A stretch of DNA of 63,991 bases, filler included, from Barthelona sp. PAP020 (Eukaryota), in assembly GCA_040182905.1 (NCBI GenBank). It is 11 parts of 11 records of this genome, joined end to end, with 100 filler letters (N's around TTAATTAATTAA, not from the genome) between each part and the next. Parts side by side here need not be neighbours in the genome. Positions count along the whole stretch, not along the records: positions 30,010 to 35,836 come from JARQWU010000577.1; 10 more parts are not named here. One strand, written 5' to 3'. The translations under genes were made by a program, and so were the position numbers. Under the pieces are notes generated by a model. The model saw only the letters and a program-made list of their open reading frames with translations, was not told where the DNA came from and did no database searches. Positions 5,610-57,856 of the stretch are shown piece after piece. Numbering within the stretch: position 1 is the stretch's first letter; the number at the start of each line of letters is the position of its first letter.

Positions 5610-5923
5610 AATAAACTAACAAAAAAAAGAAATAAATGGAAATGGAAAATAGAAATTGACGATTGACCAGAAATTTTCAAAAATCTTCCAAAATCCAAAT
5701 TGCAAATATTCACCTCATGTAAATGAACGATGTTGACAAATATTCATTGCATGTAGTTGTTTTGTTTTTAGATTTGATTGGACTGCTCTTTCTATAATAT
5801 TTACTAAACTATGAGCTATACAACCTATTCGGGTGATTAAGGGTTATGGTATTAAATTATGGCTATTTTCTCTGTTTATTGGGTGGAATTGATGTTTGTA
5901 ACATTACACATTTAAATAAACTT

Positions 5924-11942: not shown

Positions 11943-12044
11943 GNNNNNNNNNNNNNNNNNNNNNNNNNNNNNNNNNNNNNNNNNNNNTTAATTAATTAAN
12001 NNNNNNNNNNNNNNNNNNNNNNNNNNNNNNNNNNNNNNNNNNNT

Positions 12045-12194
12045 GGCTTCAAGATTAATACCAAAGAAAGGGTAATTAGCTTACCAAAGGAAAAAAGAAA
12101 TGCAATGCTGGATATGCTAAACGGATTAACAATTCAAGGAGCAATCTTGCTCAAAGGAAAATTTCAATCAGTCAGCATTATAGGAAAGATTTAA
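12045..12194 (+). mobile_element. Fragment of a DIRS-like reverse transcriptase
   Basis: GFKINTKERVISLPKEKRNAMLDML..LTIQGAILLKGKFQSVSII* aligns with GFKINTKDKKIWLPMDKRKKMLDLC..ITIEEALSLQGKLQSASIV in the element at 32176-35836. Confidence 0.85.
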
Positions 12195-13196
12195 AATTAA
12201 ATTTTATCCCCCAAAAAAAAATTAAATGAACAAGCATAAAAAAAGACTTTCGACATTCACAGAATGATGCCCATTAAACACTATTATCATATCATAAAAT
12301 AACCAACAAATATCAAATAATACTAAAATAGTGATAGAAGAGGAGAAAGGAAATTTAAAAAAAAATTCAAACAAATTCATTTTCAATTGTGATTGTACCT
12401 TTTAAAAAATTCAAAATGATGTCCATTTATTCCTTAAAAAAATACTTCTTTGATTCATGAATCACTCTTTTTCCGAATTTCAACTATCAACTCAAATTTG
12501 TGATGATTCAACAAAACAATTCATTTATTTTATATTTTAAAGGTGAAATATTGATTACTAATTGGAAAATATTTTTTTCATAAAAACCAAAATTAAAAAG
12601 AATAAATAATTGTTTTGCAAAAGCTTGAAAAAGATGTTTGGAAAAATATTTGGTCATAATTTTGTGAAAAAGGTATCTTTGTTTTTAAAATTTGAACCAA
12701 TCAACATGCAAAACAACAAAAGCATTCATTTTCAAAAATTATTGGTGAATGAAATAAAAGTTAACTGTTTAATTGAATGTTTTTGGTTGCTTTTAAATGT
12801 GCTTATTTGTTGTTACCAAATCGCACGCATCTCAATTGTACCAAAAATTCTTTAAAAAAAAAAGTTACTCTCATCAATTGTTTTCCAAAAAACATTGGAA
12901 GTCGACCAAAATTATCTTTCTTTTTTCAATATTCATTTTTTGAATTTGGGAAAATTTTCAATATGCAAAAATTAAATGAATTTTTCAAATTTTTTTCTAG
13001 GGTGTAAAATTATTTTTCACGCAAAAACTGAAAAAAAAAAAATTTTGTTAATTTTATATATATCAATTACAAAGTGATCAGTTAATTGGTTGATAGTATT
13101 TTTTTACTTTTTTTTGGGGGGAAAAATTGAAAAAAAAATGTCGACCAGATTATTGCTTTTCACAAATCAACTTCTTTTTTTCTCTCTTTATTCAGT

Positions 13197-16100
13197 ATGA
13201 AAAATTTGGAAAAAAAAGGGTTTTATCTTTTCAATGACAATGCTTACAACCCAAACAAGTTGCTATTTAACTTTTGTGACACTAAGATTTTCATGGCAGT
13301 ACCTTTCTCAACCAAGGGAATAGAGTTTACAGGCTCAAATAGGAAGTTCCATGATGTGAAAGACATTTTTGTTGCTGGATTTGGAACTTCTCAAAATAAC
13401 ATTTCAAATTTTGCAAGCAAATTTGAAGGTGGTTTTTGTTATATTCTTGAAATTACTGATGATGACGTTTTGATTAATTATAAAACAATCCCCAAAGAAA
13501 ATATCAGAGTTTTGACTCCAAACAATATGAATATGATTAACACTTTTGATAAAACAATTAATTCCATGTATCCTAAGCTAATGGAACGTCAAGATCATTT
13601 ATTTCATCAAAAATTAGAAGTTAACTATGATAACCAGCAAATAACAATCGATAGAAAAAGTAATTTCAATGAGAAACTTACAACTATCATTCAAAAGTTA
13701 TCATATGTTTTAGGTATAAGTACAGCGTATTTCTTGTGCAAAAATGTGGATGACTTCACTGTTTACTTCAGGCTGTACCAACTTATCACTGAAGATCTTG
13801 GTATTTATCAATTTAAACCATGTAGTATTCAGGAAAATGATTCATTGACGACAAACATATCTAAAAAAACCGAATTTGAATATTTTAAAAACAATTTATT
13901 AATGAGCTCGATTCCTTTTAAAAATCGACAAATTGGTGGAGTTTTGCAAGAATTATACTTTAGAGGTTGGGCCAATGATGAGCCAGTTGATCTTCAAGCT
14001 TTAAAACAGTTCTTTTCAAAGTCCGTTAAATGTTTTGCTAATCGCAATTCGGATAATTTTTTTGATTTTTTTGAATATTCAAAGAAATTAATAGAGCATA
14101 TTGAAAGGCATGAGGATTTGAATCAAAAGTTAATTTTCTACAATTATGGATTGTTAAAAATTGATGAAGATATTCATTTTGTTCATGCTGATGAACTTGA
14201 AGATCTGAATAAATGGTATGATTTTTCCATTTATCGAATCACCTGCAATGTGTTGGACATTAATTTTTTGGGTTATCATAACGATGAATTACCGAATGGA
14301 TACTTCAAAATAGATGATGAAAAATTGATCACAATCAATTTGAAAGATGAAATTGTTGATCACAATATTTTGAAATATTTTAGCTTTCCTAAACCTGAAG
14401 ATTTAACCAATTTATTTATTTATCGAAAGGAATTATTTGAAGAAGTTGAAGAAAAAGAGCAATTTTTTGAATTGATAAATTATTTTCTTTTGTCTGAACA
14501 ATCTTATTATCAACGAGCAAAATCTTTGGTTTTTAATAGAAATTTACTTGATAAATGTGATATTATTGCTCGAAAATATACAAAATACATACGTAAGCGG
14601 TCCAACTACTTTGAAGGATTACCAATTTACTCTTCAAACAAATCAGTGTTGAAAATGTTTAAGGGAATGAAATTTGATGAACGAGAGATTACAAGTGTTA
14701 TAGATCTTCTTTATGGTTCTGGTGCTCAAGATTTTAGATCGAATTGTGAAAAATTAAATTTGGCTTATGACACTGCATCAATAAAGAAGCTTGAAGCATT
14801 TTTTGAATTATTTACTTTATTCAAATTTATTGAAGCAAAGAATAATATCATTAGATTGATAGATGATCACAAAGGTAATTTGGAGAGAATGGTCTGGACA
14901 TCTTTTTTTACTGATACATTTGAAAAGAATCAAACATTTGAAAGAATAGCAAACAACAAACACAATACTGTAAATGGATATTTTGAAAGAAAGAAAAATG
15001 AAGCTGGACTGTTGGACATTTTAAAAAACAGCAAATTTCCAAAAAAAAAATTCAAGAAAATAAGAGGTCTTTTATTTGATTCTGCTAATAGATACATGAA
15101 AATTATATTGATGAAACAGAAGATCATTGCAAAAAAACGTTTTTTGCAAAAAGAAAGAAAAGATTTCAAGTTAATTGCCATGAAGTTTTATGGTTTAAAC
15201 AAGCTAACAAATGGAATCGTTGAACTGGCATTCACAATTCCAATTGAACAGGAAGTTCAAAGGATTTTAAAGGGTGGTTTGTTTTTACTTGTTTCTTTAA
15301 AGCAATTTTTATCCCAAGGTGATAAATCAAGTGAATTGATTAAGTTTGGACTTTTATCCATAGTATCAGCGGTTTCGTCACAGGTTGTCATTTTTCGAAC
15401 ATGTACTGAATTTTCAAGGCCTGAATTTTTTACTGACCTTGAAACAGACAACATGAGTTATGTTGTTCCAATTAAATGCATGTCACAGGTTGCTTATCGA
15501 AATTTTAGAAATTTTCATGCTCATCTTCAAAGAGATGCTGAACCAAATAAAGGTATCAGGCATTTTAAATGGTGTGGTTTACCACCCAGTAATATATCTT
15601 CAAATGAATATTTGAAAATGAATAATAATTTTTTGACAAATAAAATTTGGAGAAAAGACAAGCCTAATGGGCAAAACACGTATGAACAATTAACAGATAT
15701 GCAAAAATTTGTTTTGATTAAGTTAATACTGACATTTTCGAAGCTGAATTCCTTTTTAAACACAAAGACGTTGAATATCAAGTTTTTGACTTCAATTTTG
15801 TGTCCTGCAGGTTCTGGTAAGTCTAGATTGTTAGGAATGACAATGGGATATCTTTTGAAAGAAAAGACCATCGATTTTTTGTGTCTTGGACCAAATTACA
15901 AGTCAATTGAAGCATCTGTGAAAAATATCTTTGATAATGTTGAATCAACCATCAATTACATACTGTTTTATCATGAAATCAATGAAAACAAAAGGATTGT
16001 TAATTATTCTAAATCAAAAAAGAAAAACCCTACAAAATACAATTCTGATTGTAGTTTTGTGCTGGATTTATGCTTGGGTGTGGAAAAAAATATTCATGAC

Positions 16101-17945
16101 ATGATTAAAAAGCATTTTGCGTCTGATTTAACCATATGTTGGAAACATGCCAATTTACCACCCAAACAATTTCCCTATATGCACATTGTCTCGTCATATC
16201 AAGACAAAGTTGTTGAGACACTTGTCTCAAAGATGAATTACAAGCATATTAATAATCCTTTTAACGATTTTGAAGAAGTTTTCACTTCTAAAAGGAATAT
16301 ATCAAACAATGTGATCCGTAAAATTTTACAAAAATATAAAGATTACAGTATTATAAAAGATTTTGAGGATTTAATTAAGATTTTGCTGGTTTTAGGCATG
16401 AAAACTGAATTTCGTCAAATATTGAAGCAAATAACTGTGCTTGTGGATAGCATTATTAATATTTCCAATATTTCTCATCTTTCAAACCGTAAAAAAATGG
16501 GCATCATCATGGCGCATGAGTTTATTGTGGATAAACTTAATGATTTTTCATTTCCAAGAATCATGGATACAAAAAGAAACAATGCCAAGATTTTTTGTTC
16601 AACAATTGATAGTTTTACAGGAGATATTACTAGGTCCATTATCTTAATGGATGAATCTTCCAAATCAGCATTTTGCAATGACTTAGCTTTGTTGTGTTGC
16701 TTTAACAGACCGTGTGTTTGTGTTTTTACAGGAGATACAACTCAATTGAAACCAAATATGGGAATTTCAGTGAGTAGAGCTTTGTTTACTGAATGTCTCG
16801 TTAAACATTTTGAAATTTCTGGTTTGGAATTGTTGAGTAAAATGTTGCTTCCTGCGCAACAATTTGCCTTTATTGATAATTTTCGATCTCATGAAATCAT
16901 AACAAGTTTTAATAGTGCCTTATTTTACGGAAATTTATTGAAACCAGGCACGCCCTTGAACTTGTTACCAAAAAGAATTGATAATGATTATCCTCTACAG
17001 TTTTTTAATATTAGTAGCTCGTGTGGGACAAGCATAAAACCAAAGAAGGGATATTCCTCATATCGTTTGGTTGAGTGTTATTTTGCCGTTAAAGTAGCGT
17101 ATGATTCTATTGTTAAGAATCGTTCTTGGAGATGGGAATTGGAAAGATTGCCAGAAAATGCTTTCACAAGTCATATTGGAATTATTGTTCCGTATAGAGA
17201 ACAAGCAAATCAAATTCAAGAAATTTTATTAAATGTTGCTTCTAGAAATCCAAATGGATTTGACCCAGAAATAACTCGTTACATGGATAAGATAAAAGTT
17301 GAAACTGTTGATAGCTTTCAAGGGGCAGAAGCTTCAATGATCATCTATTCGTTTACCAGGAGTTCGGGTAGATTTTCAAAGAATCAACTATCAGTTGGAT
17401 TCTTAAATAATTTTCACCGAATGTGTGTTGCTTTCACCAGAGCAAAATCTAAATTTGTTTTTGTTGGGGATTTTGACACTTTTCAAAGAGTTCCTACATT
17501 TGAGTTATTTTTCAACGGAATAGAATGTACAAATGGAAGCATCACTGGAAAGTCAGTATTCAAGGTTATGAAAAGCCATGGGAAGATGTTCAATGTTAAG
17601 CCTCATGATCATGAAAAATTCTTATTTAATTCTCAGTCTAAAATAGATGTGGATGAAAACTACGAAGAGAATGGGTGTTTGCAAGGTATTTCAGAAGTTG
17701 TGAAAGTTATGAAAAATTGTATCAATGAGCAAACAATGAATTTAAAGAAATGGACAGATGAACCAATGGAGAACCGGAAGTTAAAAGAAAAAATACCCAA
17801 CAGCAATGATTTAAAGAAATCACCATCTTCAAACAAGTCAAAAGATTGTTTTGTTTCTGTCAAAGAGAAAGAAGAATCTCAGAAGAAAAAAAAAAAAAAA
17901 GGAAAAAAAAAAAAAAAAAAAAAAAAACTGAAAAAAATTGATCAA
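13197..17945 (+). CDS. Superfamily 1 helicase, Upf1/DNA2/NAM7-like, with large unrecognised N-terminal region (3' truncated)
   Basis: CPAGSGKS (motif I), MDESSK (II), GDTTQLKP (III), NFRSH (IV), TVDSFQGAEA (V), RMCVAFTRAK (VI). Confidence 0.88.
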
Positions 17946-18047
17946 NNNNNNNNNNNNNNNNNNNNNNNNNNNNNNNNNNNNNNNNNNNNTTAATTAATTA
18001 ANNNNNNNNNNNNNNNNNNNNNNNNNNNNNNNNNNNNNNNNNNNNTC

Positions 18048-19808
18048 TATTTTGCAGCGCTTGAAGGTAATCTTGAAGTTGTCAAGCAATGTATTAAAGC
18101 TGGCGTTGATGTGAACAAACAAGGTAAGGAAGGAAGGACATCGCTTTGGGGAGCTTGTTTTGGTGGTCATATTGCAGTTGTTGAGTTTTTGTTGGATTTT
18201 GGTGCTAATGTTAATTTGAATATGAATGGGGGATATTCTTCGTTATATGTTAGTTGTCAAAATGGTCATCTTGATATTGCTAAAATTCTCTTAGATCATG
18301 GGGCTGATATTAATTTGTGTAGGGACGGTGGATATTCTTCATTGTACGTCAGTTGTCAAAAAGGCCATCTTGATGTTGCCAGAATGCTCTTAGCTCATGG
18401 GGCTGATATTAATTTGTGTATGAATGAAGGTGCTTCTCCATTGTACATAAGTTGTGAACTTGGTCATCTTGATGTTGCCAAAATGCTCTTGGATCATGGG
18501 GCTGATGTTAATTTGTGTGATAATGAAAGTTTTTCGCCATTGTACATCAGTTGTCAAAATGGTCATCTTGATATCGTCAAAATGCTATTGGATCATGGAA
18601 CTGATATTAATTTGTGTATGAATGAAGGTGCTTCTCCATTGTACATAAGTTGTCAACTTGGTCATCTTGATGTTGCCAAAATGCTCTTGGATCATGGAGC
18701 AGATGTTGATTTGTGTAAGGATGGTGCTTCTCCATTGTACATTAGTTGTGAAAAAGGTCATCTTGATGTTGCCAAAATGCTATTGGATCATGGAGCAGAT
18801 GTCAATTTGTGTCCTAATGATGGTGCTTCTCCATTGTACATCAGTTGTCAAAAAGGGCATCTTGATGTCGTCAAAATGCTATTGGATCATGGAGCTGATA
18901 TTAATTTGTGTCCTAATGATGGTGCTTCTTCATTGTACATCAGTTGTCAAAAAGGTCATCTTCATGTCGTCAAAATGCTCTTGGATCATGAAGCTGATGT
19001 TAATTTATGTAATAATTATGATGCTTCTCCATTGTACATAAGTTGTCAACTTGGTCATCTTGATGTTGCCAAAATGCTCTTGGATCATGGAACCGATGTT
19101 AATTTGTGTATGAATGAAGGTGCTTCTCCATTGTACATAAGTTGTGAACTTGGTCATCTTGATGTAGCTAAAATGCTCTTGGATCATGGAGCTGATGTTA
19201 ATTTGTGTAAGAATAATGGTGTTTCTCCATTGTACATCAGTTGTCAAAAAGGCCATCTTGAAGTTGCCAGAATGCTTTTGGATCATGAAGCTGATGTTAA
19301 TTTGTGTAGGGACGGTGGATTTTCTCCATTATATGTCAGTTGTTACAATGGTCATCTTAATGTTGCCAAGATGCTTCTAGATTGTCCCGAAATAAACCTA
19401 TATGGTGAAGATATGCTGTTATTTTTCAATATATTGTATACTTATGATGACCAATGGAAAAAAAACAAATACAGCATTTTGAGCTGTCCCAATTTAAAAC
19501 AACAATTGGAGAGTGGCGAGCCTGTTGATTTGAAATTTGAGCATTTGTCCAAATCCGAGTTGATTGAATTGGTGAAGGATAAGGGTTATCTTCTATCAAC
19601 ACTTGTTGAAATGAAGGTTGACAGTGTCATCATTCGAGAATTTGTCAGTGCTGGAGTTTACATGAATCAAAGAGATTTTGACATGTCAATCAACTTATGT
19701 TGGGATTTGATCGACATCAATGAAAGGAATGGTGGTAATATGCGTCAGTATATTGATGAAGAGATGGAAGATGATGACAGTGATGAGAGTGATGTCAATG
19801 ATGATTAG
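18048..19808 (+). CDS. Ankyrin-repeat protein (at least 14 repeats, 5' truncated) with a conserved, unrecognised C-terminal domain
   Basis: Frame is open from the contig edge (YFAALEGNLEVVKQCIKAG); repeats of SPLYISCxxGHLDVAKMLLDHGADVN; tail shared with the 4404-5609 protein. Confidence 0.92.
   Translation, partial: YFAALEGNLEVVKQCIKAGVDVNKQGKEGRTSLWGACFGGHIAVVEFLLDFGANVNLNMNGGYSSLYVSCQNGHLDIAKILLDHGADINLCRDGGYSSLYVSCQKGHLDVARMLLAHGADINLCMNEGASPLYISCELGHLDVAKMLLDHGADVNLCDNESFSPLYISCQNGHLDIVKMLLDHGTDINLCMNEGASPLYISCQLGHLDVAKMLLDHGADVDLCKDGASPLYISCEKGHLDVAKMLLDHGADVNLCPNDGASPLYISCQKGHLDVVKMLLDHGADINLCPNDGASSLYISCQKGHLHVVKMLLDHEADVNLCNNYDASPLYISCQLGHLDVAKMLLDHGTDVNLCMNEGASPLYISCELGHLDVAKMLLDHGADVNLCKNNGVSPLYISCQKGHLEVARMLLDHEADVNLCRDGGFSPLYVSCYNGHLNVAKMLLDCPEINLYGEDMLLFFNILYTYDDQWKKNKYSILSCPNLKQQLESGEPVDLKFEHLSKSELIELVKDKGYLLSTLVEMKVDSVIIREFVSAGVYMNQRDFDMSINLCWDLIDINERNGGNMRQYIDEEMEDDDSDESDVNDD
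18210..19380 (+). repeat. Array of highly similar ~99-bp ankyrin-coding units
   Basis: Recurrent ggtcatcttgatgttgccaaaatgctcttggatcatgg. Confidence 0.9.
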
Positions 19809-20016: not shown

Positions 20017-20138
20017 ATCGTTCAAATTACACTACAGTCCCTTAATTCCTCCACCCCTGAGGTTTTGACTGAAATTTGCCAGGAGGAGTTTTCTGAGTTT
20101 ACTTTCTCTGTGAATAAATATAGTTGTTTCACAACTAG
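20017..20138 (+). repeat. Dispersed intergenic repeat, short copy A
   Basis: atcgttcaaattac...gagttttctgagtttactttct...aataaatatagttgtttcac, also present at ~31597-31709 and ~41629-41750. Confidence 0.85.
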
Positions 20139-29909: not shown

Positions 29910-30426
29910 NNNNNNNNNNNNNNNNNNNNNNNNNNNNNNNNNNNNNNNNNNNNTTAATTAATTAANNNNNNNNNNNNNNNNNNNNNNNNNNNNNNNNNNN
30001 NNNNNNNNNCAGCTGATGTCAAGGGAAGAAGAAGGGCCAGAGACAAAAAGGCTCAACCACCAGTTTTACCCTTCAAATAAGCATCCATCGTTTTTATTTG
30101 TTATCCTTTAAGCCAAGAGATTTAAGGTTCGGAATTCTAGTCAATAAACAAATTTTTGCCATTTTTTATTCATACGGTCATCACACATTGCTTTTCAGTT
30201 CGTCTTGTCACTCTTTTGTACCATGTACAACTCCAGAACACAGAAAAACATTTTGAAAAATGTGTATTTTTTTTCTTTTTCGACGATTTTTTAATAAAGA
30301 AGATACAATCAATTGATATTTAAGATACAATTGAATAAATTTTTATGGGAAAAAGTCAAGATTTTTTTTCACCGAGAAAACAATAATAATTCAAATTGAT
30401 CTTTTAATCATATTTTCTAATATATA

Positions 30427-30999
30427 ATGGTACATTCTTTACCTCTTGACGCTTCAGTTGATGATTATGAACTTGAAATTTTAATGGCTAATCTTTACAA
30501 AGTCCAACACCAATCTGAAGAAGGTTTGGGCAGTTTTCTTGGAGAACGTTTTTATGCTTTTGTTTGTAAGAAATTTGATCTTGATAAAAATACAAAGCGC
30601 ACAGCTCAAGAACTTCAAAAGATTCGTGATCATCTTACTGAATTAGATTTTGAAGCTGGCCAAGCATGTATTCCCATTCAATATTTTAATGAATTTGTTG
30701 AGAAGGATTTAAAGCCTCATATTGTTGAGAAATTTTGTGAAGCTGATGAAAGCATTCCACGCAACAAACTTTTTGAAATATCCAGTTACATTTTTGCTTT
30801 GGATGAAAATATGACTGAAGAAGAAATTGCTGAAGAAAAGGAAGCCATGGAAACTGAATTCTATGATGAATTAACTGAGGGAAACGACAAATTGTATTTT
30901 GATAATTATTGGGATGTTATGGGAAGCATGATAATTGAAGCCGCCTTTTTGGGAGATGATGATAGTTATGACGATATTGGTGATGACTATGAAGATTAA
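30427..30999 (+). CDS. Hypothetical acidic protein
   Basis: 190-codon ATG-initiated ORF with host-like codon usage; no motif recognised. Confidence 0.6.
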   Translation: MVHSLPLDASVDDYELEILMANLYKVQHQSEEGLGSFLGERFYAFVCKKFDLDKNTKRTAQELQKIRDHLTELDFEAGQACIPIQYFNEFVEKDLKPHIVEKFCEADESIPRNKLFEISSYIFALDENMTEEEIAEEKEAMETEFYDELTEGNDKLYFDNYWDVMGSMIIEAAFLGDDDSYDDIGDDYED

Positions 31000-31398
31000 A
31001 GAAATTTTGTCACTCACTTTGATTTTTATTTGTAAGAAGTAAATTATTGAAAATATTTTTTTAAATTTTGGTTGTCAAAAAACCCACTTTTCTTCATTGA
31101 GTTTCGGTATTTTGTTAAAATGGACAATGATTTCTTTCTTAAGAGTTTGGAATTTTTGTTTCATAAAGGGGTTGTCTATTTTATACATTTAAATATTTTT
31201 ATAATAGTCAAATAATGGAATTGTGCAAAAAAAGAATTATCAGATAAAATATGAGGTATGAATTGTTCAGTGAATAGCGAAACGAGTTAGCTTAAGGTTT
31301 GGGAAAAACTGACGTGGATTCAAATGCCCAACTAACTTAAAAAATTGGACCCAAAGGTGGTCAAGAAACAACAAATAAAGGAAGTGATATTTGATGAG

Positions 31399-31826
31399 TT
31401 ATTTCCAAGCCAAGAAGCACTGTGCGTATGAGTGAATAAAAAAGAATAGCGTTTATTTGGTTAAAGGCTTTCGAGGCCCGATTGATCTGTTGAAAAATTT
31501 TAGATTTTCTAAGGTAATGTTCAAACTTCAAAATTTTGCTTTTGCAAAAATTCAAAAAAATAGGAATGAAGAATTTTGGAGAAATTCTCCTACTTGATCG
31601 TTCAAATTACATTCCAGTCCCTCAATTCCCCTCCTAGGATTTTGACCGAAATTTGCTAGAATGAGTTTTCTGAGTTTACTTTCTTTGTAAATAAATATAG
31701 TTGTTTCACTTCTAATAAATTCTTTTCATAAAGCATGAACTTCCACAATATATCATAAATATTATTTTCAAGCTAAGAAGCACTGTGCCCATGAGCGAAT
31801 AAAAAAAAAAATTGTGTTTATTTGGT
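31399..31826 (+). repeat. Dispersed repeat, copy B (31399-31709), plus a restarted partial unit (31762-31826)
   Basis: ~310-bp similarity to 41433-41750; the head ttattt.caagc.aagaagcactgtgc recurs 363 bp later. Confidence 0.85.
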
Positions 31827-31949
31827 ATTATTGTAAATATTAATAATATTTAATTTTTACAAATTTCTCCTTTTTATGAATTTAAATAATATTCAAAATT
31901 AATATTAAAATCACAAAATTAATATGTTTTGTCCCAAATCACTTTCAGT

Positions 31950-32021
31950 TCTTTCGTAGTGTAGTGGTCATCATTCAAGCCTGTCACGCTTGGGACCGGG
32001 GTTCGATTCCCCGCGAGAGAG
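31950..32021 (+). tRNA. tRNA-Asp (GTC)
   Basis: Acceptor TCTTTCG/CGAGAGA, anticodon stem CAAGC/GCTTG with loop CTGTCAC, T-arm CGGGG-TTCGATT-CCCCG, discriminator G, TTTT terminator at 32024-32027. Confidence 0.95.
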
Positions 32022-32029
32022 AGTTTTGA

Positions 32030-35000
32030 ATTGAAGTCTTGCAAGAACAGGATCGAGTCTCACATTTCATAATCATTCACTGGACAAAAGAAACAACACA
32101 AAACAAAATTTCACGTTAGACGAAAGGGCAAAATTAAAGGCTTTAATTTATATTTGCTAACTGGGGTTGGGGAAATTACTCCATGGTATCTTTGCTGTTT
32201 TGGTCAACCGATTCAGAATTCTTTGAGTCCATATCGTTCTGAATCGGTCTCACAGTAAATGACTTTGCCGCATAAAGTCTTACCATTTCGTCTGTTTTCC
32301 AACCACCAATAGCCTTTAAGTATTCGAGATCGCCACCTTGTCTTCCGAATCGACTTGTTTCGTCGGTAGCTACCTGAAATAATTCTCTTGCTCTCCCTCT
32401 TCTGAATGAGTGTAAGGTCAATGGGTAATCGAAGTTGTGATGTTTCGAAAACCTTCTCATAACCGTTGCAAGCTTGTCATTAATTTTTCTAATCTCTTCG
32501 TAGTTGTTTGTTAGTGCTAAAATCTTTTGATTTTCCAGGCGTTTGAGATATTTTCCAAATGTTGCGCTGATCTTACCGTTGTGTAGTGTCCGTAACAGTT
32601 CGTCTTTGAAAATCACTACTTCTTTCACAGATTTGACCTTTTGACAGTATATGAAAATGACCACTGTTTTCTTTCCTAATCTGTAAGAAATGTTTCCTCC
32701 CTCCAGATCTGACCTCCTGGAACATGTGAAGTATAAAGTAACGGCTGTCTCAATCATGTGTCTTTTAGTATCTTCGTCCTCATTGACTTCTTCTTGGATA
32801 TATTTTGATAGCATGAGAAGCTGTCTTTTTGTCATGGCTGTTCGAGGTATGTGCTCTTCAGCTTTTGGTGGTCTTAATCTTTTGTTTCGTTTCACAACCA
32901 TCCCATGCAAGCTTTCATAACCAGGACTTGGTGACCATCCCGCAGCTTTCCAAAAGAATGTCACACCTGTGTACATTCTAGCCAGTGTTTCTGTCTTCAT
33001 TCTGTATTTTCCATCTTCAGTCCTTTTGTCTCCTTCTTCCGTAATGAATTTGTGTAGTAATAATTCAGTAAATTGATCGATTCTGTCATGTTTGTCGTCT
33101 TTACCATTTTTTCTGCAGTAAGAAAGGAATCTTGTAAAGTATGCTTCGTATTGTCTCCATGTTGATTCAGCAACACTTTCTTTCATATTCTTAAATACGA
33201 ACGGATCCATCCAAGTACATAAATCTTCTTTCTCATCTTCTACCTCATCAGCTATAAATTCTCCATTGGTCGTACTTCCTTTGACTTCGATTCCTCTTCC
33301 ATTGTCAAACTTCTCCACCAAAGGATACCAAGCCGGATATGTATGTTTACTAACTCCTCTGACTGAAATGTTCTTTCCAAATCTTACAGCTCGCAACATC
33401 AAATCAAGTACCATATTTTCTTCTGTTTCCTTGTAGTAAAGCTTATCTCCAATCTTTGTTGTAGCTGTGTAAAACAGAATGGAATCGTATCCTATAGTCG
33501 CAAAATCGTTATCATTGGCTAGTGGATCTTTTCCGATTTCTGGCAATGTTTCTTCAGTAGGATCTTCTTTTACCTCTGCTACTTCCTTCCATAAATCTTC
33601 AGTTATCATTTGAGGAAATTCTCCAGTTCTGATTCTTTCCCTGTCTACCAATCTTCGAATAGTCTTTGATTTTCCTTGTAAACTTCTTCCGGTTCGATTC
33701 TTAAATGTCTTACATTTTCTCAAAGACGTAAATGAGGGATAAGCGTAATCTGGGATAACAAACTCATCTGGACATAAAGTAATGTCTGAGAAAACTCCTC
33801 TATTGGGAAGAGTTATCGTCTGGTTCCTCGATAGCAAATCTGCAAACGTGTTTCTTTCTGTAGGAATCCATATCGGGTATATGTGACAGTTTAGTTTCTC
33901 ACACATTGCCCAAACATCTCTAGCAATTTCTTGCAGTTCAGCTGAACCACTCTTTTGTTTCCTAAAAGCAGCCAAAGCGTTCTGATTGTCCACAAGCCAA
34001 GCCCAACACGCGTCTTTGGCGTTAGTTTTCATATGTGTTAAGGCTTCTTTGAGAGCTATCATTTCTAAAGCTGCAATATTGTTGGGTAACCCTTTGTTTT
34101 TTGTACTTTTCTGCAAGCTTTTAACAACCTGACTAGTTTCTAAAACTGCACCTAACCCTTTTAGTGATGCATCTGTTGCTATCACTCCAGTAACCACACG
34201 TGGTGATAAATTTCCATCAATTCTCACCTCTAATAGATGGCGAATCTTATCTGTAAGATGTTTTGTTTGTCCTAGTTTCACTTTACCAAAAAACTTAGCT
34301 AGTTCTTTCATATCACTACATCCTAAATAATGCTTTTTGTGATGTATTGCGTTTCCTAGTTCTAAGCTCATACTTCGGTATCTTTGTGAAACTATTGAAG
34401 CTGATTGAAGTTTTCCTTGTAGTGATAATGCTTCTTCGATCGTAATTTCTTCAGTACATAAGTCCAGCATCTTTTTTCTCTTATCCATTGGCAACCAAAT
34501 CTTCTTATCTTTTGTATTGATTTTAAATCCTAAATATTCTACTTCTGTGGTAGGATTTTGAATTTTTGAGGTTTTTACTTTAAAACCAACGTATTTTAGT
34601 ATGAGCAAAACTTTTTCCAAATTCTCTTTGCATTCCTCCAATGATTCTCCTCCAATTAGAAGATCATCAACATACTGTAGAACAAAAATTCCTGATGCTC
34701 TTGCAAATTCAACTGGGACCTGAAGTGCCAACGAGAACAATTGCGCTGAAATTGATGAACCAAAAGGCAACTTAACAGCTCCATATTCCTTTCCTTTTAC
34801 GTTAACAACCGTATTTTCTAGCCATTCAGGGCTTAATGGAATATGGGTGTACCCGCTCTCAATATCAATAACTGCTGCGTATTTTGGAATGAGAGGGAAG
34901 TATCTACCTACATTGATTTCATGAGGCCAAATTTCTGAGACTGCATTAAGAGGAGTTGTATCTAGGATGGGTCTAACAGTTCCGTCTTTCTTTAGCACAG

Positions 35001-35836
35001 CACCCAGTCCCGCTTCTCTTTTTTTCTCCCCCTTAAAAGGTTTTAAAACACCTTCTTTTATCCATTGCTGGAGAACTTCTTCTGTTTTTTCCCCAGCCCA
35101 ATTTTTAACCCCTTTTATTATGCCCGTTTCGTCCAACAAGGTTGGTGCACCATTAACCACCTTTTCCAACGACTCTATTTCTTTTTCGTCGTACTTCAGG
35201 TGCAGAGCCAAGTTCTTAAAGCCTTCAGGATTCCATTCTCCTTTTGCTTTGGCAATTTCATTCCAGATTGTATCTGGGCTTTTGACATCATCAACCATTT
35301 GAATCTTTTCTTTTGTTTTTTCCAATAATGGTTGAGTTACTTGGTTCTCTTTCTCCTTTTCTTTCTTCTTCTTTTGAGCTTTCCAATCTCTGGTGAAAGC
35401 TTTCCTCAATCTTTTTATTTCGTTCTTTTCCCGGCAAAGACGAGTGTTTTCTTTCAATAATTTTTGAATTGTCCTCTCTCCAGAGGGCCGGGAAAAATAA
35501 ACGGAATCTTTTTTTTGATTGAGTGCTGGATATGGCACCGTAACTCCATGATCCTTTCTCAAATCACGAGCGAATGTTTTTAATTCGTCGTTCCACATTT
35601 CGAGTGTTTCAAACTCCTTTGTTGTTTCTAAGAGAATTGGGATGATTTCATTCATATTAATTCCTTCAATATTGGCAGCTTTTAAAAAATCTCCAATAAA
35701 AAGCATGATCGGAATATAAACATTAGCCTTTTTGAAAAGAAATTTCCCCTCATCGAAATTTCGGTCGGGTTTTCTAAATTGAACCCAACCAAAAATTTCC
35801 TTCATCCATTTTTGATGTCGAACCAACTTCTTGAGT
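32030..35836 (-). mobile_element. Tyrosine-recombinase (DIRS-order) retrotransposon, 5' truncated; 3' boundary approximate
   Basis: Encodes RT, RNase H and tyrosine recombinase; visibly less AT-rich than its flanks. Confidence 0.9.
32176..35835 (-). CDS. Polyprotein: RT + RNase H + possible degenerate methyltransferase + SAM-like domain + tyrosine recombinase
   Basis: DIESGYTHI, LPFG, YVDD (34663-34674), YLG; TDAS, LEMIAL, VDN, ADLLSR; STWRQY; catalytic R (CSRRSDL), HSFRRG, GGWK...RLY; frame is open to the contig edge. Confidence 0.92.
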   Translation of the reverse strand, partial: LKKLVRHQKWMKEIFGWVQFRKPDRNFDEGKFLFKKANVYIPIMLFIGDFLKAANIEGINMNEIIPILLETTKEFETLEMWNDELKTFARDLRKDHGVTVPYPALNQKKDSVYFSRPSGERTIQKLLKENTRLCREKNEIKRLRKAFTRDWKAQKKKKEKEKENQVTQPLLEKTKEKIQMVDDVKSPDTIWNEIAKAKGEWNPEGFKNLALHLKYDEKEIESLEKVVNGAPTLLDETGIIKGVKNWAGEKTEEVLQQWIKEGVLKPFKGEKKREAGLGAVLKKDGTVRPILDTTPLNAVSEIWPHEINVGRYFPLIPKYAAVIDIESGYTHIPLSPEWLENTVVNVKGKEYGAVKLPFGSSISAQLFSLALQVPVEFARASGIFVLQYVDDLLIGGESLEECKENLEKVLLILKYVGFKVKTSKIQNPTTEVEYLGFKINTKDKKIWLPMDKRKKMLDLCTEEITIEEALSLQGKLQSASIVSQRYRSMSLELGNAIHHKKHYLGCSDMKELAKFFGKVKLGQTKHLTDKIRHLLEVRIDGNLSPRVVTGVIATDASLKGLGAVLETSQVVKSLQKSTKNKGLPNNIAALEMIALKEALTHMKTNAKDACWAWLVDNQNALAAFRKQKSGSAELQEIARDVWAMCEKLNCHIYPIWIPTERNTFADLLSRNQTITLPNRGVFSDITLCPDEFVIPDYAYPSFTSLRKCKTFKNRTGRSLQGKSKTIRRLVDRERIRTGEFPQMITEDLWKEVAEVKEDPTEETLPEIGKDPLANDNDFATIGYDSILFYTATTKIGDKLYYKETEENMVLDLMLRAVRFGKNISVRGVSKHTYPAWYPLVEKFDNGRGIEVKGSTTNGEFIADEVEDEKEDLCTWMDPFVFKNMKESVAESTWRQYEAYFTRFLSYCRKNGKDDKHDRIDQFTELLLHKFITEEGDKRTEDGKYRMKTETLARMYTGVTFFWKAAGWSPSPGYESLHGMVVKRNKRLRPPKAEEHIPRTAMTKRQLLMLSKYIQEEVNEDEDTKRHMIETAVTLYFTCSRRSDLEGGNISYRLGKKTVVIFIYCQKVKSVKEVVIFKDELLRTLHNGKISATFGKYLKRLENQKILALTNNYEEIRKINDKLATVMRRFSKHHNFDYPLTLHSFRRGRARELFQVATDETSRFGRQGGDLEYLKAIGGWKTDEMVRLYAAKSFTVRPIQNDMDSKNSESVDQNSKDTME

Positions 35837-41432: not shown

Positions 41433-41750
41433 TTATTTCTAAGTCAAAAGCACTATGCGTATAAATGAATAAAGAAGAATGGTGTTTATTGGGTTAAGGG
41501 CTTTCGAGGTCTGATTGATCTGTTGAAATACTTTGGGTTTTTTGAAGTAAAATTTAAACTTTGAAATTTTGCTTTTTCTGAATACAAAAGAATGGGAATG
41601 AAGAATTCCTCCGAAATTCTCACACTTGATCGTTCCAATTACATCTCAGTCCCTCAATTCCCCTCCTGGGATTTTGACTGAAATTTGCTAGAATGAGTTT
41701 TCTGAGTTTACTTTCTTTGTAAATAAATATAGTTGTTTCACAACTGGACC
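41433..41750 (+). repeat. Dispersed repeat, copy C (runs to contig end)
   Basis: Aligns with 31399-31709 and 20017-20138. Confidence 0.85.
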
Positions 41751-53962: not shown

Positions 53963-54232
53963 AAGTGAATTGTTTTTTCTTCCATTTATTTTGTAAAAAA
54001 AAAAACTTTTAAATGGCTAAATTGGGTTTAAAGTGATATGTGAGTCTTTAAAGGGAATCTTGAAACACCTGAAACGGAAAATGAATAATTTTTAAAAAAA
54101 ACAATAAAAACATAATATAACAGCATTTTAGACACAATTTTTATCAGCAAGTGAAAATTTATGTTTTTGTAAAAACAACACAGTTTGAATGAACTTTTGA
54201 TTTTTTTCTTTTCTTTGAAATCTTCATTTATC

Positions 54233-57200
54233 ATGTCAAATACTCTTGAAAAATTTTCACAAACGTTGTTAGAAGTTGGTAATAATAATTTTTGTAATTT
54301 TATTGATACAATCAAATCTGTTGATTTTCTTTCTGTGTTTAGTTGCCTTTGTCAAACTGATATTCCTATTTTTGAGATTACTATGTCGATGGTATCTAAT
54401 TTTGTTGATCATCAAGAAGCTAATGAAGAAGCGATTATTCTTTTTTTTAGAGTTGTGTGGTTATCGACTGCATTTGAAGAATTATTGGAGACACGAGCCG
54501 AATTGGCAAATGATAGAACATTTCAAAAGTGTTTGAATCAATTCTATGAGAATTGTACTGTTGCCTCCAATATTATTAAAAAGACAACTGAACGTAGCTT
54601 TTTAGGCAAGTTTGTATTTGGAGGGAAGGATTTAGAAAATATTACAAAGTTACATGGAAAATTCGACAGTATTAATGGGGATCTACAACTAATACTGAGT
54701 TCAAAAATAGCAACTTTTCCAGAAACAATTCAACAACATATCACGACCCATCTAAATGACATGAATCAAAAGTTAATGGAAGAATTGCAAAAAAATTATA
54801 ATAAGATGGAGGATAACCACAAGGAGCTTACTAACACGCTTTCCTTAATCTTGACCAAATTTGATTCGATGGAACGTAAGAATAAATTGCAAACTTTGCT
54901 GGGAAAAATTGAAAATAACGTAAATCTTAATGATTTACGAAATTTTAACATTCCAGTTATTGATTCTAAAGAAATTTCTTATTCTAGAGAGCTTGGAAGA
55001 GGAGGTTATGCCACCATTCTGAAGGGTAGATATAAGCGATGTGATGTTGCTGTTAAAGTACCTTATAATGCATCTAAAGAGCAAGTATTGAATGAGTGCA
55101 TTTCTATATCATTTATTCATCGATTTATTTGCAAAATTTATGGAATTACCCAGAAAGACGGACAATGGAGCATAGTTATGGAATACTGTCCAAGTACACT
55201 TGAAAGAAAAATGAAAACAATGACTGTCATTGAGAAGCTTGAAAGTCTTATTCAACTGGCAGATGCATTAAGTTGTTGTCATGATAAAGGGATCATTCAT
55301 CGAGATGTCACTCCTAAAAATGTATTAATCAGAGAAGATGGAACTGTTGCATTGTGTGATTTTGGCCTTGTACGCAGTCTAGAAAGAAACAGTGCATTAT
55401 CAACGTTTGGGACTGTCCATTATATGCCACCTGAATTGTTCACTGAAGAAAACCCTGTTGCACATCCTGGAATTGATTCATGGTCGTTTGGTGTTACTTT
55501 TTTTGAAGTGATGAGTGGTTGTACTCCTTTTGAAGGAATTGCTCATCACTTAGTCAATATGAAGCTTGCTTCTGGCAAAAAACCTTTTGAAAATATTGAT
55601 TGGATTGTGGGTTATGAATTTATTTTCAAGTGCTTCAACTCCGAAGCCAATAATAGACCAATGTTTCATGAAATCATAAAATATTTGGAAAGCACATTGA
55701 ATGATATGGAGAATGTTGTTGATGTGTATACAAACAAGTTGATACTACCTAAGACTCCCAATGTTGTTGTCGATATTACCACTTCTAATTATCAAAGTAT
55801 GATCACAAAGTATGCTATTGATGTGGCTGATGATCTTTCTAGTGATTTTGTGATTGATTCCAGTGATTTTTTTGATATTGCTGTGGGGAAAATCCAGGAG
55901 GGCGATATGACATTTACTAAGCAATGCATCAAAGCTGGGTTGAAGTTGAATACACAGGATAATCAAGGAGTTAGCCTTTTGTATGTCGCTGCTAAAAATG
56001 GATATGTTGATATTGTTAGGATGCTTATCGATTTCGGGGTCAATATCAATGTATGCACAAATGAAGGACATTCCCCTTTGTTTATATCATGTAAAAATCA
56101 ACATATTGAAACCGTGAAAGTTCTTCTGAATTTTGGAGCAATTGTTGATTGCAGTCTTAATTTTGATTGTTCTCCAATATACACTGCTTGTAATCAAAAC
56201 CAATACGATATGGCTTGTCTTTTGCTGGATTACATTCAAAATATCAATCAAATATATCAACCTAATGACCTTTCCTTGTTGTATATTTGTTGTGAAAAGG
56301 GGTATTATGATATTGCTAAGCTTTTGTTGGAACGTGGTGCCAATGTAAATCAAACTATTGCACAAGGCTGTACTTGCTTGTATGCTAGTTGTTATTTCAA
56401 CCATAATCGCATTGTTGAGTTGCTTTTAGATAATGGGGCCAACGCTGACAGCTCCAAAAAAAACTTCTTGCCTTTATTTGCTGCTTGTAGTTTTGGAAAT
56501 TTTGAAATTGTCAAATTGCTTTTAAAATATGAGGCCAACGTGAATCAAATGAGAAATGATGGATATTTTGCATTATACTGTAGTTGTGATAATGGTCATT
56601 TAGAGATTGTCAAATTGCTATTGGATCACAATGCTAATATGAATCAAATAACCAATGAAGGTTTTTCTTCGTTATTTATTAGTTGTCTAAAAGGACACTT
56701 AGAAATAACTAGATTATTAGTGGAGCGTAAAGCCAATATCAATCAACTTACAAATGATGGTCGTTCTCCATTGTACTGTAGTTGCGAGAAAGCACACTTA
56801 GAGATTGTCAAATTGTTGTTGGAACATAATGCCAATGCCAATCAACTTACAAATGATGGTCGTTCTCCATTGTACTGTAGTTGCGAGAAAGGACACTTAG
56901 AGATTGTCAAATTGTTGTTGGAACATAATGCCAATGTCAATCAACTTACTGATGCTAATTTTTCTCCATTGTACTGTAGTTGCGAGAAAGGACACTTAGA
57001 AATTGTCAAATTGTTGTTGGAACATAATGCTGATGCAAATTACATCACTTTTGAAGAATGTTCTTGTTTATATGTTTGTTCTTATTACAATTTCGAGAAC
57101 CTCGTCAAATTACTTTTACATCATGGAGCTGATGTTAATTTGACTGGAAATAATTTTTCTCCTCTGATTGCTAGTTGCTCTCAGGGGCACTTTGAAATTG

Positions 57201-57856
57201 TGAAATTGCTTTTGGAAAATGGGGCTCATGTCAATGAACTAAATGAAGATGGGAATTTTCCCTTATTTACCAGTTGTATGAATGGACATTACGAAATTGT
57301 CAAGTTACTCTTGGACTATGAGGTTGATTTGAATCAGTTATCAAAGGAAGGTTCTTTTGCATTAAAAATAAGTTATGAAAAAGGTCATCATGATATTTTC
57401 AAATTACTCTTGGAACATGATGTTGATGTGAATCAAAAATCTAAAGATGGTTTTTTCTTGTTATACGACTGTTGCTGTGCTCAACGAGATGATGATGTCA
57501 AATTGCTTTTGGAACATGGAGCAGATCCAAATCAAACAGTAAATGGTGGATTTACTTCCCTGTATGCTGCATCTAACGATGGAAGTTATAATATTGCCAA
57601 AATGCTTTTGGAATATGGTGCTGATGTCAACCATCTGGGAAATGATGGTTATTCATCTCTCCATATAGCCTGTTGTGAAGGTCATTATGACATTGTAAGA
57701 TTGCTGTTACAGAATGGAGCTGATGTGGATATTTTGAGTTGCAAAGATCAAAAAGCTATTGACATGGCAAAATCAAGGAATTTCACGAACATTGTTGACT
57801 TGTTATCAGAGCCATTGTCTGCGCAAGAGAATAATATTTGTTGTTCTATTCAATAA
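54233..57856 (+). CDS. MLKL-like N-terminal four-helix bundle + TKL-type kinase + ~19 ankyrin repeats + C-terminal CaaX
   Basis: NTD ~54365-54697 (..IIKKTTERSFLGKFVFGGKDLENITKLHGKFDSINGDLQLIL); kinase GRGGYA, VAVK, HRD, DFG, DSWSFG; ANK ~55900-57800; ends CCSIQ*. Kinase and ANK are certain; the MLKL-NTD call is by eye. Confidence 0.88.
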   Translation: MSNTLEKFSQTLLEVGNNNFCNFIDTIKSVDFLSVFSCLCQTDIPIFEITMSMVSNFVDHQEANEEAIILFFRVVWLSTAFEELLETRAELANDRTFQKCLNQFYENCTVASNIIKKTTERSFLGKFVFGGKDLENITKLHGKFDSINGDLQLILSSKIATFPETIQQHITTHLNDMNQKLMEELQKNYNKMEDNHKELTNTLSLILTKFDSMERKNKLQTLLGKIENNVNLNDLRNFNIPVIDSKEISYSRELGRGGYATILKGRYKRCDVAVKVPYNASKEQVLNECISISFIHRFICKIYGITQKDGQWSIVMEYCPSTLERKMKTMTVIEKLESLIQLADALSCCHDKGIIHRDVTPKNVLIREDGTVALCDFGLVRSLERNSALSTFGTVHYMPPELFTEENPVAHPGIDSWSFGVTFFEVMSGCTPFEGIAHHLVNMKLASGKKPFENIDWIVGYEFIFKCFNSEANNRPMFHEIIKYLESTLNDMENVVDVYTNKLILPKTPNVVVDITTSNYQSMITKYAIDVADDLSSDFVIDSSDFFDIAVGKIQEGDMTFTKQCIKAGLKLNTQDNQGVSLLYVAAKNGYVDIVRMLIDFGVNINVCTNEGHSPLFISCKNQHIETVKVLLNFGAIVDCSLNFDCSPIYTACNQNQYDMACLLLDYIQNINQIYQPNDLSLLYICCEKGYYDIAKLLLERGANVNQTIAQGCTCLYASCYFNHNRIVELLLDNGANADSSKKNFLPLFAACSFGNFEIVKLLLKYEANVNQMRNDGYFALYCSCDNGHLEIVKLLLDHNANMNQITNEGFSSLFISCLKGHLEITRLLVERKANINQLTNDGRSPLYCSCEKAHLEIVKLLLEHNANANQLTNDGRSPLYCSCEKGHLEIVKLLLEHNANVNQLTDANFSPLYCSCEKGHLEIVKLLLEHNADANYITFEECSCLYVCSYYNFENLVKLLLHHGADVNLTGNNFSPLIASCSQGHFEIVKLLLENGAHVNELNEDGNFPLFTSCMNGHYEIVKLLLDYEVDLNQLSKEGSFALKISYEKGHHDIFKLLLEHDVDVNQKSKDGFFLLYDCCCAQRDDDVKLLLEHGADPNQTVNGGFTSLYAASNDGSYNIAKMLLEYGADVNHLGNDGYSSLHIACCEGHYDIVRLLLQNGADVDILSCKDQKAIDMAKSRNFTNIVDLLSEPLSAQENNICCSIQ
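56741..57030 (+). repeat. Three near-identical 99-bp ankyrin units
   Basis: Units start at 56741, 56840 and 56939 (aatcaacttac...tctccattgtactgtagttgcgagaaag.acacttaga). Confidence 0.9.

What the first reader, a model, noticed from the sequence alone, without database searches (positions are those of the whole stretch)
32176..35836. DIRS-type retrotransposon with RT, RNase H and tyrosine recombinase fused in one uninterrupted ORF
Seen: at least 1216 codons with no stop, running from a possibly gag-derived N-terminal region (open to the contig edge) through RT (YVDD), RNase H (TDAS/E/D/D), a SAM-like domain and a recombinase with R, HxxR, W and Y catalytic residues. Established: canonical DIRS, PAT and Ngaro elements usually encode the recombinase in an ORF separate from, often overlapping, pol. 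Inference: this is an intact, possibly active and structurally atypical lineage. No protease motif is visible in the sequenced part, so RT and recombinase may act as one chain.
Basis: partly seen in the sequence, partly recalled or inferred. Interest (0 to 1): 0.75.

Follow-up and report, generated by a model that had tools for sequence, protein, structure and literature searches.

The report
Barthelonid one-frame recombinase retrotransposon lineage
A jumping gene in an oxygen-avoiding single-celled eukaryote (likely a barthelonid) keeps its RNA-copying enzyme and its DNA-inserting recombinase in one unbroken reading frame, as do three divergent relatives, so the fusion is likely this lineage's normal design; one-frame versions are already reported in other groups, so it is a new variant, not a new kind.

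Summary
Confirmed: 32176-35836 (-) is stop-free for 1219 codons and open at a contig edge. It encodes RT, RNase H, a ~205-aa linker of no known family and a Cre-like tyrosine recombinase (YR). All 13 catalytic positions are kept. The fusion is not a one-copy accident. Two complete Barthelona sp. PAP020 transcript ORFs (1208 and 1209 aa, 39-41% identical) have the same layout, and so does a far more distant Barthelona family (967 aa, different YR type) that groups with them by RT (99/98). Against: the closest relative (60%) is a 508-aa ORF that ends in the linker, probably a broken copy. The DIRS/PAT methyltransferase is absent, no DIRS or Ngaro terminal repeats lie in the sequenced 3' part, and gag is unproven. 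The surprise shrinks on two points. All YR retrotransposons lack a protease, and same-frame or single-ORF layouts are in print (fungal Ngaro, Bodo TATE). The ORF stops 153 bp from the 3' end of a tRNA-Asp gene (one case; a lead only). Verdict: new variant of the DIRS order; superfamily unresolved without named Ngaro, PAT or VIPER references.

The parts
32176..35836 (-). Single stop-free ORF (P0001, 1219 aa plus stop), 5'-open at the contig edge; by weak alignment to P0002 roughly 40 codons are probably missing
35242..35836 (-). N-terminal region (aa 1-198): poorly conserved first part followed by a lysine/arginine-rich stretch; gag-like role unproven
   Evidence: 17-19% identity to homologues, 5 of 198 invariant; no CCHC; no atlas hit of 0.9 or more for the P0002 equivalent
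34192..35241 (-). Reverse transcriptase with thumb/connection (aa 199-548), D324 and YVDD 388-391; DIRS/PAT-like type
33820..34191 (-). RNase H (aa 549-672), D555/E591/D616/D666
33205..33819 (-). Conserved ~205-aa linker of no known family at the place where DIRS/PAT elements carry the methyltransferase
   Evidence: 34-36% identity, 48 of 205 invariant; hhalign to a methyltransferase profile of 90 relatives: probability 0.3%; no atlas hit; pLDDT mostly under 50
32836..33204 (-). Recombinase N-terminal core-binding (SAM-like) domain (aa 878-1000)
   Evidence: Ndc10_N E 1e-4; aligns with DIRS-type YR N-terminus; Cre fold match
32260..32835 (-). Tyrosine recombinase catalytic domain (aa 1001-1192): R1040, K1066, H1142-x-x-R1145, W1179, Y1188
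32207..32248 (.). Perfect 12-bp inverted repeat (arms 32207-32218 and 32237-32248) in the unconserved last codons; candidate cis signal for priming or end-joining (inferred)
   Evidence: longest such repeat 12 bp against 6-8 bp in 11 of 11 other 300-nt tiles of the ORF; 1 of 300 shuffles reaches it; RNA fold z -3.35 on a window chosen after seeing it
32023..32175 (-). 153-bp spacer between the ORF stop and the tRNA; probably the element's 3' end plus the tRNA terminator; no ICR or split direct repeat in it
   Evidence: 35% GC against 13-29% in 22 of 24 host 3' flanks; longest exact repeat with the contig 11-12 bp
31950..32022 (+). Intact host tRNA-Asp(GTC) gene, tail-to-tail with the element; possible insertion target (one case)
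12044..12190 (+). Truncated relic of a sister family at another contig edge (RT thumb fragment)
   Evidence: 41 of 48 aa identical to P0020, 51% to P0001

Best explanation
This is a tyrosine-recombinase (DIRS-order) retrotransposon, likely of a barthelonid host, whose reverse transcriptase, RNase H, an unknown linker domain and Cre-like recombinase lie in one reading frame and are predicted to work as one uncleaved protein that would copy the element's RNA and then insert the copy. Shown: the frame, the domains, the full catalytic sets, the same layout in three divergent transcript-derived proteins, absence of the methyltransferase, and a separate long RT branch. Inferred from the DIRS-1 model (PMC7192593): RNA is reverse-transcribed to cDNA, the ends are joined into a circle, and the recombinase crosses the circle junction into a short target without target-site duplication. 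Inferred here: translation as one chain fixes RT and YR at 1:1 without frameshift or splicing and would hand the recombinase its own cDNA in cis, as LINE ORF2 proteins couple RT and endonuclease. The 12-bp hairpin at the ORF's end is the best candidate priming or joining signal. The fusion is old: it likely predates the split of the two Barthelona families, one of which then likely changed its recombinase.
For: 1219 open codons. P0002 and P0003: 99% coverage, 39-41% identity, 'complete' transcript ORFs, RT and YR in one chain. P0064 (967 aa, same organism's transcriptome, 4 accessions at this length) also RT-RH-YR in one chain. The two families group on RT/RH at 99/98, SH-aLRT 100 on RT alone and 99.6 after Dayhoff-6 recoding. 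13 of 13 catalytic positions are invariant over about 60% divergence, which implies selection on both enzymes in the fused frame. Cre fold. Only 3 of 1.84 billion representatives score under 1e-30, all from Barthelona. A sister-family relic lies in the same window. No protease is expected in this order.
Against: P0020, the closest relative (60%), is a 508-aa ORF ending in the linker. No second copy of this exact family, no termini and no reads were seen, so mobility and activity are unproven (searches found nothing). No ICR, ITR or split direct repeat was found in the sequenced 3' part. The two Barthelona families are long branches: FastTree gave only 0.66 and RNase H alone did not join them directly. 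Their linkers and YRs do not align significantly, so the fusion could have arisen twice. Cleavage by a host protease cannot be excluded from sequence.
Confidence: 0.75

Rival explanations
1. It is simply a divergent Ngaro-like (or methyltransferase-less PAT-like) element with the YR in frame, a state already noted in fungal Ngaro; nothing beyond a new host. The mechanism would be the same and only the novelty would drop.
For: No methyltransferase and the order pol then YR fit Ngaro. [quoted passage not shown] Loss of the methyltransferase in a PAT lineage is reported (PMC4157794).
Against: Most of the 150 best RT/RH hits carry the methyltransferase, 90 with a clear motif, so the RT is DIRS/PAT-like by similarity. 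No B1/B2 repeat pair lies between the ORF and the tRNA. The conserved 205-aa linker has no counterpart in any relative found. No named Ngaro sequence was available for a direct test.
Confidence: 0.35
2. The ORF is a true polyprotein that is cut into RT-RH and YR by a host protease, or by the unknown linker acting as a cryptic protease, so the enzymes act separately as in other DIRS elements.
For: Acidic, variable stretches flank the conserved linker core, as cleavage sites often do (own knowledge). Cre-type recombinases act as tetramers (own knowledge), which is awkward with a 140-kDa chain. The linker has invariant Cys residues.
Against: No aspartic-protease motif. No protease family hit in Pfam, NCBIfam or PHROGs. 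The distant family has a shorter, unalignable linker.
Confidence: 0.2
3. The locus is no longer mobile: an orphan copy without termini, or a domesticated host gene derived from such an element.
For: No terminal repeats seen on the 3' side; no near-identical second copy in the window.
Against: At least four sub-families at 40-60% identity plus a relic copy; GC 38% against 30% on the rest of the contig; the ORF runs into a contig break, as repeats usually do in short-read assemblies (own knowledge); all catalytic residues kept.
Confidence: 0.1
4. Assembly artefact joining a pol gene and a separate recombinase gene.
For: The assembly is fragmented; reads could not be examined.
Against: Independent transcript assemblies give the same colinear fusion over 99% of the length, including the linker.
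Confidence: 0.02

Closest known systems
DIRS1-like retrotransposons (Dictyostelium DIRS-1 and kin; PMC3266345, PMC7192593, passages read)
   Same: LTR-type RT plus RNase H, Trp-type YR (hhalign 93%, E 2.8e-7 to five DIRS-type YRs), no protease or DDE integrase; nearest RT/RH hits are of this kind.
   Different: No methyltransferase; YR in the pol frame rather than in a separate, often overlapping ORF; no ICR or ITR in the sequenced 3' part; extra 205-aa linker.
PAT-like elements (PAT, TOC, Kangaroo; PMC4157794, PMC3266345, passages read)
   Same: Same enzyme set; the RT falls in the unresolved DIRS/PAT-like group.
   Different: PAT elements carry the methyltransferase, split direct repeats and a separate (sometimes inverted) YR ORF; none is seen here.
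Ngaro elements, especially fungal Ngaro with in-frame YR (PMC3783388 section 15; PMC8547959, PMC9210276 passages)
   Same: No methyltransferase; order RT-RH then YR; same-frame YR is reported.
   Different: No B1-A2-B2 repeats between ORF and tRNA; RT resembles methyltransferase-bearing elements; conserved novel linker; the paper does not say whether 'same frame' means stop-free. Not tested by tree against named Ngaro.
TATE of Bodo saltans (VIPER-like; PMC6681497 passages and section 9)
   Same: Two copies hold all genes in one ORF of about 1464 aa.
   Different: The paper lists the TATE genes as gag, YR, RT/RH, whereas YR is C-terminal here; kinetoplastid-restricted.

Membership tests
Order DIRS (YR retrotransposons) | LTR-type RT plus RNase H with intact catalytic residues | tested here: met
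   groups with YR-element RTs apart from Ty3/gypsy at 100/100
Order DIRS (YR retrotransposons) | Tyrosine recombinase instead of DDE integrase; no aspartic protease | tested here: met
   R-K-H-R-W-Y set, Cre fold; no rve or protease hit
Order DIRS (YR retrotransposons) | Upstream gag-like ORF | tested here: inconclusive
   5' end beyond the contig edge; N-terminal 200 aa has no family hit or CCHC
DIRS1-like | Dam-like methyltransferase after RNase H | tested here: not met
   profile of 90 relatives: hhalign 0.3%, no hmmsearch hit in the linker, while eroded remnants were detected in other relatives
DIRS1-like | Inverted terminal repeats plus internal complementary region | tested here: inconclusive
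   no inverted match above 12 bp between the last 378 bp and the contig; 5' end missing and 3' boundary unknown
DIRS1-like | YR in a separate, often overlapping ORF | tested here: not met
   one frame; the longest other stop-free stretch on the coding strand is 90 codons
PAT-like | Methyltransferase domain | tested here: not met
PAT-like | Split direct repeats | tested here: inconclusive
   none between ORF and tRNA; an 85%-identical 65-nt pair beyond the tRNA belongs to a dispersed repeat; A1 unsequenced
Ngaro-like | No methyltransferase; RT/RH before YR | tested here: met
Ngaro-like | Split direct repeats A1-ORFs-B1-A2-B2 | tested here: inconclusive
   no B1/B2 pair in the 153-bp spacer or the ORF tail; copy may be 3'-truncated
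Ngaro-like | RT within the monophyletic Ngaro clade | not testable with these tools
   no named Ngaro sequence was returned by any search; the reference alignments of PMC6681497 are .fas files that cannot be read
VIPER/TATE | YR placed between gag and RT/RH | tested here: not met
   YR is C-terminal; the order in VIPER/TATE is taken from the gene listing in PMC6681497 and recall

The most novel reading that the evidence does not exclude
A barthelonid-specific, superfamily-level fifth lineage of tyrosine-recombinase retrotransposons that runs on one uncleaved RT-RNase H-recombinase protein, has replaced the methyltransferase by a new domain, has swapped recombinases (Cre-like Trp type in one family, phage/Xer-like His type in the other), lacks the known terminal-repeat layouts, and inserts just downstream of tRNA genes, which no YR retrotransposon is reported to do in the papers searched.
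Probability: 0.25. Interest if true: 0.75.

Novelty: new variant of a known kind. Interest (0 to 1): 0.5.

Why it matters
How DIRS-order elements express and coordinate RT and recombinase is open: even for DIRS-1 a frameshift fusion is only a suggestion (PMC5006619), and the recombinase's specificity had not been studied experimentally (PMC7192593). A compact natural fusion of about 1200 aa needs no frameshift or splicing, so it is an easy construct for testing RT-to-recombinase hand-over and target choice, and possibly a basis for RNA-templated insertion without double-strand breaks. It also extends YR retrotransposons to the BaSk metamonads; my searches found no description there. If the tRNA adjacency proves general, it would add YR elements to the list of tRNA-targeting retrotransposons of compact genomes.

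Tried and rejected
Methyltransferase remnant in the linker: suspected by eye, rejected. Single-sequence fold of the C-terminal half: useless, pLDDT 38. With a 4-row alignment the linker stayed under pLDDT 50, so its fold is unknown; no VIA-align comparison was obtained. ESM Atlas: no usable hit for the linker; best 0.82 for the P0002 N-terminus, which is chance level, including a flexivirus capsid row that I do not count as gag evidence. Stand-alone recombinase relatives: only P0020 among 4975 shorter candidates and 0 of 3240 candidates with a 3-row YR profile. Genomic context of relatives: no locus in IMG/VR, JGI metagenomes or GTDB, so the tRNA link and the termini could not be tested on other copies. 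The 65-nt direct-repeat pair at 31399/31762 as B1/B2: rejected as unlikely, because the copies are 85% identical, lie beyond the tRNA, and belong to a repeat found at two other places. Seven other RT+YR single-chain hits (P0021, P0073, P0104, P0141, P0142, P0150, P0157) were not counted as precedents. Five are named springtail or Dictyostelium gene models and two are unnamed; several lose the end of the methyltransferase at the join, which suggests predicted splices across overlapping ORFs. This is inferred; their DNA was not seen. No complex prediction was run.
Full report
Observation. The minus-strand frame 35835-32176 has 1219 codons and one terminal stop; chance at this composition is about 2e-42. 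The window is a concatenation of 11 short contigs joined by N-linkers; the element sits at the right end of contig 30010-35836 and is cut by the edge. The neighbouring long ORFs read as intron-poor eukaryotic genes (kinases, ankyrin repeats, a ribosomal protein, names from recall). The element is 38% GC against 30% for the rest of its contig. No other stop-free stretch above 90 codons overlaps it on the coding strand.

Anatomy. N-terminal region aa 1-198, RT 199-548, RNase H 549-672, linker 673-877, recombinase core-binding part 878-1000 and catalytic part 1001-1192. Pfam support in P0001 itself is strong for RT (E 2e-18) and weak for RNase H and YR (E about 0.01). The homologues give YR at 1e-6 and 2e-15. 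An AlphaFold model of aa 651-1200 from a 4-row alignment folds the YR part mostly at pLDDT 70-90; Foldseek ranks Cre structures first (E 4.7e-7) and phage integrases in the viral library. Thirteen of 13 catalytic positions checked are identical in the three full-length members. There is no D[TS]G motif and no CCHC knuckle in P0001.

Is the fusion general? The word-index search scored 7990 candidates and returned 18 hits. Two cover 99% of the query region at 41% and 39% identity (P0002, 1208 aa; P0003, 1209 aa); the other 16 match only the RT region and carry Ty3/gypsy- or retrovirus-type domain sets. Both are 'complete' ORFs from the Barthelona sp. PAP020 transcriptome in EukProt. The exhaustive search of 1.84 billion representatives found 8169 proteins at E up to 0.001 but only 3 under 1e-30: these two and P0020, also from that transcriptome. 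A YR profile built from 7 of my own hits and run on the 171 proteins then held matched 11, the three full-length members included. One of them, P0064 (967 aa), is again a Barthelona transcript ORF with RT, RNase H and YR in one chain. It starts about 50 residues before RT and has a His-type 'LGH' recombinase that scores better to phage/Xer models and does not align significantly with the window's YR (1.5%). The other seven are gene models or unnamed records whose joins I could not check (see Tried and rejected). Against the fusion: P0020, the closest relative (60% identity), is a 508-aa 'complete' ORF that starts inside RT and ends inside the linker. Being broken at both ends, it reads as a defective copy or isoform, but that is inference. 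A relic at 12045-12188 is identical to P0020 at 41 of 48 residues. This shows a second sub-family in this genome and makes a barthelonid host likely (taxon-level inference).

Placement. Most of the 150 best RT/RH hits carry the Dam-like methyltransferase of DIRS/PAT elements. A profile from 90 such tails finds eroded remnants in several relatives but nothing in the Barthelona linkers (hhalign 0.3%). The linker is nonetheless conserved (34-36% identity, 48 of 205 invariant) and has no family, atlas or fold assignment. A FastTree of 135 rows put both Barthelona families together at 0.66. An IQ-TREE mixture-model tree of 38 rows, picked by hand from those 135, joined them at 99/98 on a long stem, inside the YR-element group (100/100 against six Ty3/gypsy-type rows), whose base is unresolved. 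RT alone gave 100, Dayhoff-6 recoding 99.6, and RNase H alone placed P0028 between them. Partial rows, among them the named Dictyostelium protein P0150, were left out. No named Ngaro, PAT or VIPER/TATE sequence was in any tree, so superfamily membership is open. Long-branch attraction is reduced but not excluded.

Ends and surroundings. The stop lies 153 bp from the 3' end of an intact tRNA-Asp(GTC) gene on the other strand, the only tRNA in the 64-kb window. The spacer is 35% GC; 22 of 24 host 3' flanks are 29% or less, so it probably belongs to the element. It holds no ICR or B1/B2 repeat: the longest exact matches to the contig are 11 bp direct and a 12-bp inverted pair inside the last codons. 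That hairpin exceeds all 11 other tiles of the ORF (6-8 bp) and 299 of 300 shuffles, and folds at z -3.35 (window chosen afterwards). With some 30 intergenic gaps in the window and one tRNA, adjacency has a rough post-hoc chance of a few per cent (my estimate, no call); it is one case. Known 3'-of-tRNA inserters are Skipper-2 and TRE3 at 8-150 bp, and the table rows shown from that review list no YR element (PMC5911963, passages). Five collection scans found no locus of a relative. No whole genome or reads were available, so copy number, termini and targeting stay untested.

Mechanism. Shown: both enzymes are complete and selected within one frame in several divergent, transcribed families. 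Taken from DIRS-1 work (PMC7192593, passages): RNA to single-stranded cDNA, restored ends, circle, recombinase-mediated insertion; a 3' hairpin was proposed as primer. Inferred: the chain stays uncut, as no member of the order encodes a protease (PMC3783388), giving 1:1 RT:YR and cis delivery. Cleavage by a host protease is the main rival. The linker may serve as nucleic-acid-binding or spacing domain in place of the methyltransferase; untested.

Comparison with print. The usual layout is three ORFs, often overlapping (PMC3266345, PMC4157794, PMC8547959, PMC9210276, PMC5890265; passages read). [quoted passage not shown] DIRS-1 itself may make a pol-YR fusion by frameshift, untested (PMC5006619, passages). 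Unchecked notes of this scan report giant single-ORF YR elements in dinoflagellates. Searches for single-ORF YR elements, tRNA targeting and metamonad or barthelonid elements (PMC11316075 passages) found no description of this lineage. PMC8869645, PMC2685390 and PMC13465315 passages added nothing on fusion. The Kangaroo paper was not held. The Goodwin/Poulter/Butler reviews and Repbase were not seen, and the .fas supplements of PMC6681497 were unreadable; any of these may hold further single-ORF cases or the nearest reference.

Verdict. Real, intact, and a lineage-wide trait. It works like a DIRS-order retrotransposon and belongs to that order, but fails the DIRS1-like, PAT-like and VIPER/TATE tests and is unproven as Ngaro. 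New variant of a known kind; interest 0.5.

Noticed in passing
window 31399-31709, 41433-41741, 20017-20132, 31762-31826: A dispersed non-coding repeat of about 311 bp with copies 85-86% identical. Three copies share the same right boundary (31709, 41741, 20132) and one extra 65-nt left-end piece lies beside the tRNA. It may be a MITE-like element or a solo terminal repeat.
   Followed up: partly
window 12044-12190 (+): Relic RT-thumb fragment of the P0020 sub-family at a contig edge, ending abruptly in AT-rich DNA.
   Followed up: yes
protein P0064 (not in the window): Second Barthelona YR retrotransposon family with a His-type (LGH) phage/Xer-like recombinase fused to a related RT; suggests recombinase exchange within the lineage.
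   Followed up: partly
window 13131-17945 (+): Long ORF of about 1600 aa, open at the contig end, with superfamily-1 helicase-like motifs (by recall) in its C-terminal half.
   Followed up: no
window 4404-5615 (-) and 18046-19808 (+): A WD40-like protein and an ankyrin-repeat protein end in a similar ~70-aa C-terminal module followed by an acidic tail, suggesting a shuffled lineage-specific domain (by eye).
   Followed up: no
window 54173-57856 (+): Protein kinase fused to a long ankyrin-repeat array behind a helical N-terminal domain (1227 aa, by eye).
   Followed up: no
window 5924-59535: Ten N44-TTAATTAATTAA-N44 linkers join contigs of about 5.9 kb; adjacency across them is artificial.
   Followed up: yes
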